From the NCBI GenBank assembly GCA_037379345.1, contig CM074519.1:19246103-19310102 (forward strand): a stretch of DNA of 64,000 nucleotides, in the 5' to 3' direction. The stretch is from Perna viridis (lineage: Eukaryota). Shown here in pieces: positions 6,001 through 9,000 of this stretch (the first letter of the stretch is position 1; every line of letters starts with the position of its first letter). The position numbers are program-made.

Positions 6001-9000
6001 CGTGGATATAACGAATATAGGTATGTTGAATATGCCAAAGAGACAACAACCCCATCGGGATTAAATGTTGCCCAAGGCCATCCATTGGTCTTCAATGAAC
6101 GACGAGGAAACCCTCACACCACAGGGCAGGTTGCAGCTTGCACCAAAACATTATTATACAGCGAAAGCATTGCCCATATACATCTAGATGTCTTTTTTTA
6201 GCGGACTTGACCTTTAACAAAAAACCTTTTTGTTTATTTGAACTTGTTATTTACATATAGGTAATTATATATGTATGTCATATCTGAGATATGAAGGTTA
6301 GATATCATCTGATTAGATAGAAAAGGGAAAGAAAGGAACACCTTCAGATTTCGCTAATGAAAAGACATTCCCGCAGGGTATCCATACCCATCGACGTTTC
6401 GGAATCCATATAACCACAGACCAAATTTTTTCTCATATTTATGAAAAAGGGTGTGTGGTCCATGATTAATGTTATGCGCCAAGGCTGAGTGTGCTGTACC
6501 GTTTATTGATTTTGTTTTTGAATGACTAAACGAAATTTCTTCTTCATCTAGAACAAAACTTTTACACATGCCACATCCCCCTTGTATTGCTATGCTGATA
6601 GAACTTGAAAACCCTTCAGGAACAATGAAATCATATCGAGACTTATACTGGTTGACACCGTGAATTGTCATCATGAAAGAATCGCCCACATTAGAGCCTT
6701 TTTCGTGAGGAAATATCGTCACCAAAAGCCCAGTCGTTGATTTAATATAAGAGATATCCATGTGTTCAATGTCATGATATTGAGCCTTTTCCAGTGTTAT
6801 ATGCTTTTCTTCCTTTCCGGAAATGAAGATAGAACTATTTTCGTAAGTCAGTAACCGAACAGTACTGTTGGCCTTTTTCAAAATTGGCGGTATCACAAAT
6901 TCCTTATCGAGTTTCTCTGCTGGTATTACATATTCTGTGAAGTGATTGCATGTGCTAACTGTCACAGAGTTGCATTTGTTTCCAGAAACCACTGCTATCG
7001 GCTCTGAGGCGGAAACAATTGAGCCTGTCAAATCATATGTATGAGTCAGTTGAACGCTTTGAAAAGACTCTAATATTATTGTTATTGTTTTACCACTTCC
7101 ATATTGTTGTCCCTCGTACGATACTAAACCTGAAGACGTTTTAACGTGTACCTCAACTTTCGTTCGTTTACTTAAAGATGCAATTCCAATTAAGCTTGCT
7201 GACAATTTTCGGTTTCCCCAAACGGTAAATGATGGAACGACATAATTCCGCGAGAGATAGTGCTCAGGTATTGCTAAGTAACCATCACATGTATCTTTGT
7301 GGCGTTGAAACCCGAAAACTTCAATTGGAATATCGGATGTTATGCGTATAACTTTATTTGATACTCCATGGTTGTCAAGAAAAACCGATTTTGGCATTTT
7401 TTTCTCGTTTGCTCCACGTGTAATATGAAACTTGTTACTTGTCCCTTCAAATTTGATCATTGCTGTTCCATTTGACCTACTGTAAATGTAGAGTGTTGGT
7501 ATAGTTAATTGTCGGGAGTATGGTTCTGTAAATATTGTAACGTAATCTTTTGCACTTCGACCTACAATAAAAACATGTCTGTGTATATATCTAGCTATGC
7601 CTGATTAAGTTACAAGAAACTTTCACTTTCACACATGCACAAAATTACTCACCATTTGTACTGTAAATCTTATTTATTCTTGATGTTCTTTTCATTATTG
7701 AACCTATTACAGTAGGATAGCAGGCTATCGATTTTTGAGAATTAAATGCAACGGAATATAATATGACAGAATTATATATCGATGGAAAGCTTATTTCAAG
7801 CTCTATCGAAATAGCGATGTCGTACACATCGATTGTGGTCACATCTGTAAAGAAATCGGGTCATAGATCAATCATGAGTTTTAAGAAGTCATTTTGAATC
7901 TTTTTTGTATGACTAATTTCCCTTTGCTGGATGGAAAAATTCTTAACTTTTTACATCAGATCAGCTCAAAATTCATGTCATAAGCTCAAATTTCATGTCA
8001 TAAGGAATCAATAGCTATATTTAATAAAACCTAGCAAATACCAACACCGTACATTTACAGTAGGACAAATGGAACAGTAATGATCAAATTTGAAGGGAGA
8101 AGTCACACGTTTCCTATTACACGTGGAGCAAACGAGAAAAATACCCAACACGATTTTTATTGACAACCATGGGGTTTCAAATAAAGTTACACGCATAACA
8201 TCCGATATTCCTGTTGAAGTTTTCGGGTTTCAACGCCACAAAAATACATTGGTTAACATGCCAGAAACTTTCAAATTTTAGCAGCTCGAAAGAAAAGGCC
8301 GACCTTGACCTTTGAGGTATCGAAATGTAATTTTTTTTGGAGAATTTTTGAATTGCCAAGACTCATTTTTTCCTTGTTTATAAATTTTGTAATGAGACAA
8401 AATTCGGAATTATGGTATACAGTTAGAATTGCAAACAAAAAAATCAGTACATTAAATCACTTAAGCCCTAATTTAATTATGTATTTATTTATCCCTGTTC
8501 TTCACGGGATACAAAAAATAATTACAGCGAAACGGTATTCACTAGAAAAACGGATAAATAGAGAATCATAAGAATAGCATCATTTTTTTTCTTAGACCAC
8601 CAACATAGTACCATAATGAGTCAGATATTCCGAATTAATTTGAACTCCGTGCAAGACTTGACACACTGTTTATGAAGTCATTTTTTCTTGGATAAATAGG
8701 AAATGTGGGTCAAAGTCGAAATGCTTTAACAGATGTATACAAATAATGCAATCACAATCTTTTAGTGTGCCCTCTTATAAGTAAGAAGCAAACATTCCCA
8801 TTTATTAAGCAGATGTACTTTTTTTCAAATGTTTTGGTTACACTTAGGATTTCTTATTTAGCTAAACCACTGATCCAACCCTCTCTTTTTATATGCCTAA
8901 ATGTTTTAAGACTAAGATTTCTTTTAACCCCCCCCCCCCCCCCCATGATAATCATCTCTCAAATTTACTAGTCTTAGTAATAGATCTCGAAATTTAGAAA

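What the first reader, a model, noticed from the sequence alone, without database searches (positions are those of the whole stretch)
7289..8249. Gene carrying an antisense copy of its own coding exon: long pre-mRNA stem that loops out a symmetric exon
Seen: intron 1 (8038-8249) is an inverted, roughly 85% identical copy of the 5' part of coding exon 3 (7289-7502). Both arms are in one minus-strand transcript. The loop of about 535 nt contains all of exon 2 (192 nt, phase 1-1, so skippable in frame), its splice sites and the exon 3 acceptor. Established: intramolecular duplexes of about 200 bp are substrates for ADAR and Dicer and can alter splice-site choice. Inference: this could be a built-in regulator causing exon 2 skipping, A-to-I recoding of the FCGBP-N domain, or siRNAs acting on paralogs of this family. 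It could equally be a neutral scar of fold-back duplication.
Basis: partly seen in the sequence, partly recalled or inferred. Interest (0 to 1): 0.72.

Follow-up and report, generated by a model that had tools for sequence, protein, structure and literature searches.

The report
Backwards exon copy in mussel intron
A mussel gene for a secreted IgGFc-binding-type protein carries, in its only intron, a decaying backwards copy of about 215 bases of its own last exon; the RNA should fold into a long double strand, but this looks like a duplication scar rather than a built-in regulator.

Summary
The inverted repeat is real. Bases 7289-7502 (coding, minus strand) and 8038-8249 match in reverse orientation at 192 of 214 positions (90%, BLAST E 1e-79), with 535 nt between them. 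The minus-strand RNA folds into a roughly 203-bp stem (z = -24.6 against shuffles).

The gene looks like a two-exon mytilid-mussel gene. Exon 1 (10685-11186) encodes a signal peptide and a coiled coil. The last exon (6354-7561) holds Pfam IgGFc_binding. Together they give 569 codons, against 565 and 568 aa in named Mytilus relatives.

Most of it is the end of a multi-copy, TA-flanked, inverted-repeat-bounded element (7708-9968) that also encloses the antisense copy. Neither the paralog nor the Mytilus proteins have a counterpart.

The exon-3 acceptor lies inside the loop, so the standard loop-out skipping geometry does not apply.

The copy is frameshifted. Its 20 substitutions (12 transversions) show no bias towards keeping base pairs.

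Best reading: a neutral scar of a local inverted duplication, possibly made during transposon repair. It would incidentally create an ADAR or Dicer substrate. Editing, small RNAs, splicing and conservation could not be tested here.

The parts
7278..7502 (-). Exonic arm: sense coding sequence, starting 59 nt into the last exon. The core is 7289-7502, extended to 7278 past a 4-nt bulge.
   Evidence: It lies in the 416-codon open frame 6354-7604, at residues about 35-105.
8038..8256 (+). Intronic arm: a plus-oriented, frameshifted copy of the exon piece. It is antisense within the minus-strand pre-mRNA.
   Evidence: 192/214 identical to the exonic arm, with a 2-nt gap and 20 substitutions. tblastn splits it into two frames. 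It is about 60% identical to the paralog and 90% to gene A.
7503..8037 (-). Loop of 535 nt.
6354..7561 (-). Last coding exon, stop codon included. The acceptor reads ttattgtag|G, phase 1. It holds the IgGFc_binding domain.
   Evidence: Pfam PF17517, E 1e-41, 143.6 bits. 47% identity to M. edulis IgGFc-binding protein-like P0003, starting at DYVTIF. P0002, P0004 and P0005 start at the same point.
10685..11186 (-). Exon 1. ATG at 11186-11184, a hydrophobic signal-like N-terminus, about 140 aa of coiled-coil-like sequence, and the donor G|GTATGT in phase 1.
   Evidence: Read. The paralog keeps a 42%-identical copy (E 5e-23). Mytilus P0003 and P0008 have the same layout and length. The sequence match to P0003 is not significant (E 0.2).
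7562..10684 (-). The single intron, 3123 nt.
   Evidence: Matching phase-1 donor and acceptor. Length.
7653..7844 (-). Bases 7708-7844 are a repeat terminus. No evidence supports it as a family exon.
7708..7851 (-). Left terminal inverted-repeat-like block of a TA-flanked element. The multi-copy block runs inward to about 7890.
   Evidence: 101/166 columns identical to 9812-9968, and 0 of 500 shuffles reach the score; four unrelated short ORFs share the block and all diverge after 7711.
9812..9968 (+). Right, degenerate inverted copy of the same block. It ends ...TACAG followed by TA.
   Evidence: (pair I1).
9048..9386 (.). Fragment of a second repeat family, also inside the intron.
   Evidence: copies at 3592-3824, 4125-4237, 11460-11742, 14905-15126, 29984-30273, 43969-44247 and 44737-44948.
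15457..21081 (+). Head-to-head degenerate paralog A'. It has an exon-1-like part (15457-15828) and a last-exon-like part (20319-21081) with an in-frame stop and residues about 103-217 missing.

Best explanation
This is a genuine evolutionary inverted partial duplication. About 215 nt of the last coding exon of a two-exon mytilid gene was copied backwards into the gene's only intron, 535 nt upstream of its source. The gene encodes a signal peptide, a coiled coil and an IgGFc-binding-type domain. The copy is a decaying pseudo-exon fragment and most likely a neutral scar of a local template-switch or fold-back repair event.

Shown here: the repeat, the decay of the copy, the gene model by homology and phase, the repeat nature of 'exon 2', and the predicted stem.

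Inferred: the pre-mRNA folds into a stem of about 203 bp before the intron is removed. That stem would be an incidental substrate for promiscuous ADAR editing or for Dicer, and might lower output. No function has been selected for.
For: The repeat is real and ancient-looking rather than artefactual. It is 90% identical, and its differences are 20 substitutions against one 2-nt gap.

Nothing suggests selection for pairing. Twelve of the 20 substitutions are transversions that break pairs. The 8 transitions give 5 G-U wobbles and 3 A-C mismatches, where about 4 wobbles are expected. The substitutions fall 7/6/7 over codon positions 1, 2 and 3.

The copy is frameshifted. It derives from gene A itself, not from the paralog: A-B 90%, A-A' 63%, B-A' 60%. 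No other piece of the exon lies on the plus strand nearby, so this is a partial local copy.

The region is rearrangement-prone. It has a head-to-head degenerate paralog and two repeat families inside the intron.

Gene model: the phase-1 donor at 10685/10684 matches the phase-1 acceptor at 7562/7561. That gives 569 codons, against P0003 at 565 aa and P0008 at 568 aa.

'Exon 2' is a repeat terminus.

Predicted stem: (203 pairs, -308 kcal/mol).
Against: No data here bear on expression, editing, small RNAs or conservation, so a selected role is not excluded.

The stem is still very stable, and the gene that tolerates it looks intact. Both exons are open, and an independent database protein, P0001, is 279/283 identical.

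A segment with a pyrimidine-rich acceptor, a GTRAGT donor and an open phase-1 frame arises in only 6.5% of shuffled introns. An exonised transposon end is therefore possible.

Polarising with the paralog gave 9 changes on the copy, 6 on the exon and 5 uninformative. The outgroup is about 60% identical, so this is noisy.

The sample of 20 substitutions is too small to exclude weak selection.
Confidence: 0.6

Rival explanations
1. A built-in editing inducer. The intronic arm acts like a very long editing-site complementary sequence, so that ADAR recodes the start of the IgGFc-binding-type domain before splicing. This would diversify or tune a secreted protein of an expanded family.
For: The exon-intron duplex lies in one pre-mRNA. 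The exonic arm has 86 adenosines, 74 of them paired, and A-to-G would be nonsynonymous at 54 of those 74. The arms exceed the criterion one metazoan editome study used for potential intramolecular dsRNA: at least 80% identity over at least 50 nt within +/-2 kb (PMC9989829, passages). ADAR homologues are reported in lophotrochozoan genomes (PMC6651903, start of abstract in the listing). Exonic sites defined by pairing with intronic complements are the classic GluR-B case (PMC1920255, start of abstract in the listing).
Against: A near-perfect stem of 200 bp is expected to be edited promiscuously, not site-selectively (general knowledge, recalled). The substitution pattern shows no preservation of pairing. 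There are no RNA data and no comparative DNA.
Confidence: 0.12
2. A hairpin source of endogenous siRNAs. Dicer cuts the stem, and the small RNAs silence the gene itself or close paralogs.
For: The inverted repeat is long and homologous to a coding target, as in Drosophila hpRNA loci (PMC10317233, start of abstract in the listing). It also fits the plant inverted-duplication model of miRNA origin (PMC3237417, title and start of abstract in the listing). The longest uninterrupted helix is 36 bp.
Against: One arm is the target's own exon and the other is removed with the intron, so there is no dedicated hairpin transcript. The only paralog in the window is about 60% identical in this stretch, too diverged for siRNA targeting. 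There are no small-RNA data.
Confidence: 0.07
3. A splicing switch that loops out a symmetric cassette exon.
For: The segment 7653-7844 is open in phase 1-1 and has good splice-like borders. It and a 7802-start variant are the only strict candidates in the intron, and 6.5% of 200 shuffles give at least one. Loop-out skipping by inverted intronic repeats is documented for Alu pairs (PMC13019027, abstract).
Against: The downstream acceptor (7562) is inside the loop and one arm is exonic, so the stem does not bring the exon-1 donor to the exon-3 acceptor. 'Exon 2' has no homologue in the paralog or in the Mytilus proteins. It is a repeat terminus whose homology crosses the putative acceptor, where the window copy has a stop.
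Confidence: 0.04
4. Rival on origin only: the exon piece was taken up by a transposon. It could be filler DNA copied from the neighbouring exon during repair of the element, or transduplication, rather than a transposon-independent fold-back.
For: The arm lies inside a segment bounded by inverted copies of a multi-copy block, with TA on both outer sides and termini reading CAGT.../...ACAG. The source exon starts about 150 nt from the element's left end. No transposase remnant was found in 8 inner ORFs, which fits a non-autonomous element.
Against: The segment fills 72% of the intron, so enclosure is weak evidence. The right-hand copy is only 61% identical, and the two ends could be independent insertions. 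No second copy of the arm with these flanks could be sought, because no eukaryotic DNA collection was available.
Confidence: 0.25
5. An assembly artefact (a fold-back chimera).
For: Inverted duplications can be created by long-read library chimeras (general knowledge, recalled). The database protein P0001 starts at TTG 7205-7203, which would fit another assembly breaking in or near the exonic arm (inference only).
Against: The arms differ at 10% of positions, almost all substitutions, and are separated by 535 nt of unique sequence. Artefactual fold-backs give near-identical abutting arms. No gap lies nearby.
Confidence: 0.03

Closest known systems
Exon-intron editing duplexes with an intronic editing-site complementary sequence (GluR-B Q/R and R/G sites; PMC1920255, start of abstract seen in the listing)
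   Same: A coding exon pairs with a complementary stretch of an adjoining intron of the same pre-mRNA. Any effect on the exon must therefore come before splicing.
   Different: Here the complement is a 215-nt, 90% identical copy of the exon itself, lying in the upstream intron. It is not a short, imperfect, conserved element. Editing was not shown and conservation was not testable.
Loop-out exon skipping by inverted intronic repeat pairs (inverted Alu pairs; PMC13019027, abstract) and repeat-driven back-splicing (PMC4201285, start of abstract in the listing)
   Same: A long stable stem formed by inverted repeats encloses splice sites.
   Different: One arm is exonic. The acceptor to be used lies inside the loop. 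The enclosed 'exon' is unsupported.
Hairpin RNA (hpRNA) loci of Drosophila, and inverted duplication of target genes as the origin of plant miRNA genes (PMC10317233 and PMC3237417, listings only)
   Same: An inverted duplicate of part of a protein-coding gene gives a long hairpin homologous to that gene.
   Different: Those are separate non-coding transcription units acting in trans. Here the hairpin is half coding exon and half intron of the target itself.
Gene-fragment capture or filler DNA inside DNA transposons (Pack-type elements; recalled, no paper read)
   Same: A host exon fragment lies between the inverted ends of a non-autonomous element.
   Different: The source is only about 200 nt outside the element, in the same gene. 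Mobility and other copies carrying the fragment were not shown.

Membership tests
Exon-intron editing duplex (ECS type) | An exonic sequence is base-paired with a complementary intronic sequence of the same pre-mRNA | tested here: met
   This depends on the two-exon gene model.
Exon-intron editing duplex (ECS type) | ADAR-dependent A-to-I editing at exonic sites | not testable with these tools
   No RNA reads were available.
Exon-intron editing duplex (ECS type) | The intronic complement is conserved across species | not testable with these tools
   No eukaryotic DNA collection was open. The protein search with the arm's ORF found nothing.
Loop-out exon skipping by inverted repeats | Both arms are intronic and flank the skipped exon, leaving the donor and acceptor to be joined outside the loop | tested here: not met
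   The arm 7278-7502 is exonic, and the acceptor 7562 is inside the loop.
Loop-out exon skipping by inverted repeats | A genuine skippable exon lies in the loop | tested here: inconclusive
   Nothing in the family supports it, and it is a repeat terminus. However, its splice-like borders are rare in shuffles (6.5%), so exonisation is not excluded.
Loop-out exon skipping by inverted repeats | A stable predicted stem | tested here: met
   z = -24.6. 203 pairs, -308 kcal/mol.
hpRNA / endo-siRNA hairpin locus | A long inverted repeat homologous to a protein-coding target | tested here: met
hpRNA / endo-siRNA hairpin locus | A dedicated hairpin transcript distinct from the target gene | tested here: not met
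   One arm is the gene's own coding exon, and the other lies in its intron.
hpRNA / endo-siRNA hairpin locus | 21-23-nt small RNAs from both arms | not testable with these tools
   No small-RNA data were available.
IgGFc_binding domain proteins (Pfam PF17517), for the host gene | A match above Pfam's gathering score | tested here: met
   143.6 bits against a cut-off of 25.6, covering profile positions 1-297 of 297.
Non-autonomous TA-flanked DNA transposon (Tc1/mariner-like; the criteria are recalled), for 7708-9968 | Terminal inverted repeats | tested here: met
   101/166 columns identical, and 0 of 500 shuffles reach the score. The match is degenerate.
Non-autonomous TA-flanked DNA transposon (Tc1/mariner-like; the criteria are recalled), for 7708-9968 | TA on both outer sides of the termini | tested here: met
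   Read. Two bases are weak evidence.
Non-autonomous TA-flanked DNA transposon (Tc1/mariner-like; the criteria are recalled), for 7708-9968 | Other copies with the same sharp end and different flanks | tested here: met
   Four short ORFs (P0021, P0022, P0023, P0025) share the block and diverge right after window base 7711. Their sources are unnamed, and only protein sequences were seen, not DNA.
Non-autonomous TA-flanked DNA transposon (Tc1/mariner-like; the criteria are recalled), for 7708-9968 | Transposase gene or remnant | tested here: not met
   0 of 8 inner ORFs match a transposase family. If this is an element, it is non-autonomous.

The most novel reading that the evidence does not exclude
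A coding gene keeps an antisense copy of its own exon in the adjoining intron as a self-contained dsRNA device. The roughly 200-bp pre-mRNA stem would drive heavy ADAR recoding of the start of a secreted IgGFc-binding-type domain, or make siRNAs that throttle the gene. That would give a fast-evolving mussel gene family built-in diversification or dosage control, born from a transposon repair accident.
Probability: 0.1. Interest if true: 0.6.

Novelty: new member of a known kind. Interest (0 to 1): 0.25.

Why it matters
If the stem does nothing, this is a clean example of how local inverted duplication and transposon debris can put a long dsRNA-forming structure inside an intact gene. It also shows how a transposon end can pass for a tidy in-frame exon, which is a caution for gene prediction in repeat-rich mollusc genomes. 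If the stem is edited or diced, it would be a simple natural test case for exon-intron dsRNA in bivalves. ADAR is known in that group mainly from antiviral work, and endogenous substrates are barely described there.

Tried and rejected
- Searching exon 1 for longer proteins, to catch a transcript-derived full-length protein showing the real exon junction, found none among 611 candidates.
- Searching the intronic arm's 65-aa ORF, junction included, to find the arm in other assemblies gave no candidate. The ORF is short, so this is weak evidence.
It was not repeated, so the origin and copy numbers of P0001 and P0021-P0025 stay unknown.
- I aligned the intron of gene A with that of paralog A' to date the insertion. 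Only the first ~400 nt align (10268-10651 with 16072-16448, 74%), so no dating was possible.
- Arm B as a relic of a whole inverted paralog: rejected, because no further exon pieces lie on the plus strand.
- Arm B copied from paralog A': rejected (60% against 90%).
- A 24-nt direct repeat abutting the arm (7602-7625 / 8250-8273, 79%) was judged chance-level. Several similar pairs occur in the same list.
- Rfam at gathering thresholds over the whole window gave 0 matches.
- A PDB sequence search with the last exon gave 0 matches.
- The bacterial-type promoter and terminator scan is irrelevant to a eukaryote and was ignored.
- Literature searches gave analogues but nothing on this gene. I make no claim that such exon-intron self-copies are unreported.
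- Not used: structure prediction, complex prediction, the protein atlas, and genome contigs (bacteria and archaea only, so not relevant). No supplements were consulted.
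Full report
**What the window is.** G+C is 30-40% throughout. The best named relatives of the coding sequence at the finding are Mytilus proteins: M. edulis 'IgGFc-binding protein-like' P0003 at 47% identity, then M. coruscus, M. californianus, M. trossulus and M. galloprovincialis. The single N run (36456-36597) was left alone.

**The observation.**
- The repeat finder gives two abutting inverted pairs, 7289-7404/8134-8249 and 7399-7502/8038-8141, with 535 nt between the inner ends.
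- A gapped alignment joins them: 193/214, E 1e-79.
- A global alignment gives 192/214, with 20 substitutions and one 2-nt gap.
- In the whole window this is the only exon-intron inverted pair. All other long inverted pairs are a repeat family or the two paralogs.
- The minus-strand RNA 7280-8260 folds at -407 kcal/mol. Twenty shuffles averaged -201 +/- 8, z = -24.6.
- As two strands the arms form 203 pairs (127 A-U, 71 G-C, 5 G-U) at -308 kcal/mol. The longest uninterrupted helix is 36 bp.

**The gene.**
- A 416-codon open frame (6354-7604, minus strand) matches Pfam IgGFc_binding over the full profile (residues 107-400, E 1e-41).
- Homology to P0003 begins at DYVTIF, just after the acceptor ttattgtag|G at 7562/7561.
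- The database proteins P0002, P0004 and P0005 begin at the same spot.
- Upstream, 10685-11186 holds an ATG, a hydrophobic signal-like start (judged by eye) and a long helical-looking region. It ends in G|GTATGT in phase 1, matching the phase-1 acceptor.
- Its similarity to the N-terminus of P0003 is not significant (E 0.2).
- Two other facts tie the exons together. The plus-strand paralog keeps both parts in the same order: 15457-15828 at 42% identity (E 5e-23) and 20319-21078. The two exons also add up to 569 codons, against 565 aa for P0003 and 568 aa for P0008, which have the same layout of signal, helical region and domain.
I did not build or search the joined model. The 569 is arithmetic on coordinates.
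- Both arms therefore lie in one pre-mRNA. The copy is in the 3123-nt intron, and the source starts 59 nt into the last exon.
- The source covers residues about 35-105 of the open frame. That is upstream of the Pfam match but within the part conserved in relatives.

**'Exon 2'.** The 192-nt segment 7653-7844 is open in phase 1-1 and has good borders. It and a 7802-start variant are the only strict candidates in the intron. At least one such candidate appears in 6.5% of 200 shuffles.

The evidence against it being an exon is as follows.
- It has no Pfam match and no counterpart in the paralog.
- There is no room for it in the Mytilus proteins.
- Scored against 1.84 billion representative proteins, its 63 residues hit 5 proteins at E <= 0.001.
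- One hit is an 18-residue match to a 2769-aa repeat protein.
- The other four (82-134 aa) are short ORFs that share only the first 45-48 residues. All diverge from the window and from each other right after 'CYPT' (window base 7711).
- Two of those four also match upstream of the supposed acceptor, where the window has a stop codon.

A block with one sharp common end and unrelated flanks is what the terminus of a mobile element looks like. A degenerate inverted copy of the same block lies at 9812-9968: 101/166 columns identical, and 0 of 500 shuffles reach the score (first seen). Both outer ends read ...TAC(T/A)G followed by TA. I recall TA flanks and CAGT termini as typical of Tc1/mariner elements; this comes from no call. 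None of 8 inner ORFs matches a transposase.

So most of 'exon 2' is the left end of a roughly 2.26-kb non-autonomous transposon-like segment, or of one of two opposed insertions. That segment also encloses the antisense arm and a fragment of a second repeat family (9048-9386). Exonisation of this end is not excluded, but nothing supports it.

**Geometry.** Loop-out skipping, as described for inverted Alu pairs (PMC13019027, abstract), needs both arms in introns around the exon, so that the donor and acceptor to be joined sit at the base of the stem. Here the acceptor of the last exon (7562) is inside the loop with 'exon 2', and one arm is the exon itself. The stem would not bring the exon-1 donor to that acceptor.

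**Selection or decay.**
- Of the 20 substitutions, 12 are transversions, which break pairs.
- The 8 transitions give 5 G-U wobbles and 3 A-C mismatches, no better than chance.
- The substitutions fall 7/6/7 on codon positions 1, 2 and 3.
- The copy is frameshifted.
- It comes from gene A's own lineage: 90% identical to A, about 60% to the paralog, while A and the paralog are 63% identical in this stretch. It is therefore much younger than the paralog split.
- With the paralog as a poor outgroup, 9 changes fall on the copy, 6 on the exon and 5 are uninformative.
- The differences are substitutions and the arms are separated by unique sequence, which argues against an assembly fold-back.
- Nothing here indicates selection for pairing. 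With only 20 differences, weak selection cannot be excluded.

**How it most likely works.**
- Shown: an inverted partial self-copy, its decay, the gene model, the repeat nature of 'exon 2' and the predicted stem.
- Inferred origin: a local template switch or fold-back during repair or replication, possibly repair of the enclosing element using the nearby exon as filler. Enclosure is weak evidence, because the element-like segment fills 72% of the intron.
- Inferred consequence: the intronic arm is transcribed first. The stem can close once 273 nt of the last exon are made, probably before the 3.1-kb intron is removed.
- It meets the criterion one metazoan editome study used for intramolecular dsRNA: at least 80% identity over at least 50 nt within +/-2 kb (PMC9989829, passages; oyster was among its species).
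- ADAR homologues are reported in lophotrochozoans (PMC6651903, start of abstract in the listing).
- Of the 86 adenosines in the exonic arm, 74 are paired, and A-to-G would change the residue at 54 of them.
- I expect any editing to be promiscuous and incidental. The net effect, if any, would be some loss of output.

**Comparison with known systems.**
- It works most like the exon-intron duplexes that define ADAR sites in GluR-B (PMC1920255, start of abstract in the listing). It differs in being a long near-perfect self-copy in the upstream intron.
- It resembles hpRNA loci and the plant inverted-duplication model (PMC10317233 and PMC3237417, listings only) in origin. It differs in being half coding exon rather than a separate hairpin gene.
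- It fails the geometric test for loop-out skipping.
- I rate it a new member of a known kind: an intragenic inverted duplicate that forms dsRNA.

**What stayed unchecked.**
- Editing, small RNAs, splicing and read support for the assembly, because no reads were available.
- Supplements of the cited papers were not consulted.

**Verdict.** The feature is most likely a neutral scar (confidence 0.6). The probability of a selected dsRNA function is about 0.1. Interest 0.25.

Noticed in passing
window 15457-21081 (+): A head-to-head degenerate paralog of the gene. It has an exon-1-like part (15457-15828, 42% aa identity) and a last-exon-like part (20319-21081) split by an in-frame stop at 20692-20694, with residues about 103-217 missing. 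Only the first ~400 nt of the two introns still align.
   Followed up: partly
window 7708-9968: A TA-flanked segment bounded by degenerate inverted copies of a multi-copy block (7708-7851 and 9812-9968). It holds no transposase remnant. It looks like a non-autonomous DNA transposon or two opposed insertions.
   Followed up: partly
window 3592-3824, 4125-4237, 9048-9386, 11460-11742, 14905-15126, 29984-30273, 43969-44247, 44737-44948: An interspersed repeat family of about 200-340 nt, found in both orientations at 80-88% identity. Two copies lie in or next to the gene's intron and upstream region. It was not classified.
   Followed up: no
window 7203-7205 and 6357-7205 (-): The database protein P0001 (283 aa, unnamed source, contig 1406 nt) is 279/283 identical. 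It starts at the in-frame TTG 7205-7203, read as M. This would fit a contig that begins in or just after the exonic arm. Two of its three internal differences (K to R, I to V) can each be explained by a single A-to-G change at the DNA level (my reading of the codons). Whether these are polymorphism or editing cannot be told.
   Followed up: partly
window 26926-44158 (-): A run of long minus-strand open frames (213-513 aa) that look like exons of one large gene with repeated modules. The 5 that were tested have no Pfam match.
   Followed up: no
window 56849-60628 (-): A retrotransposon remnant. It has integrase (rve), reverse transcriptase and RNase H matches in several broken frames (57124-60000), between 127-nt direct repeats that are 95% identical (56849-56975 and 60502-60628).
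   Followed up: no
window 7963-8004: A 20-nt unit duplicated in tandem (2.1 copies, 95% match) inside the loop, 34 nt from the intronic arm.
   Followed up: no
window 36456-36597: A run of 142 N, either an assembly gap or masked sequence. It lies inside the large minus-strand gene region and was left untouched.
   Followed up: no
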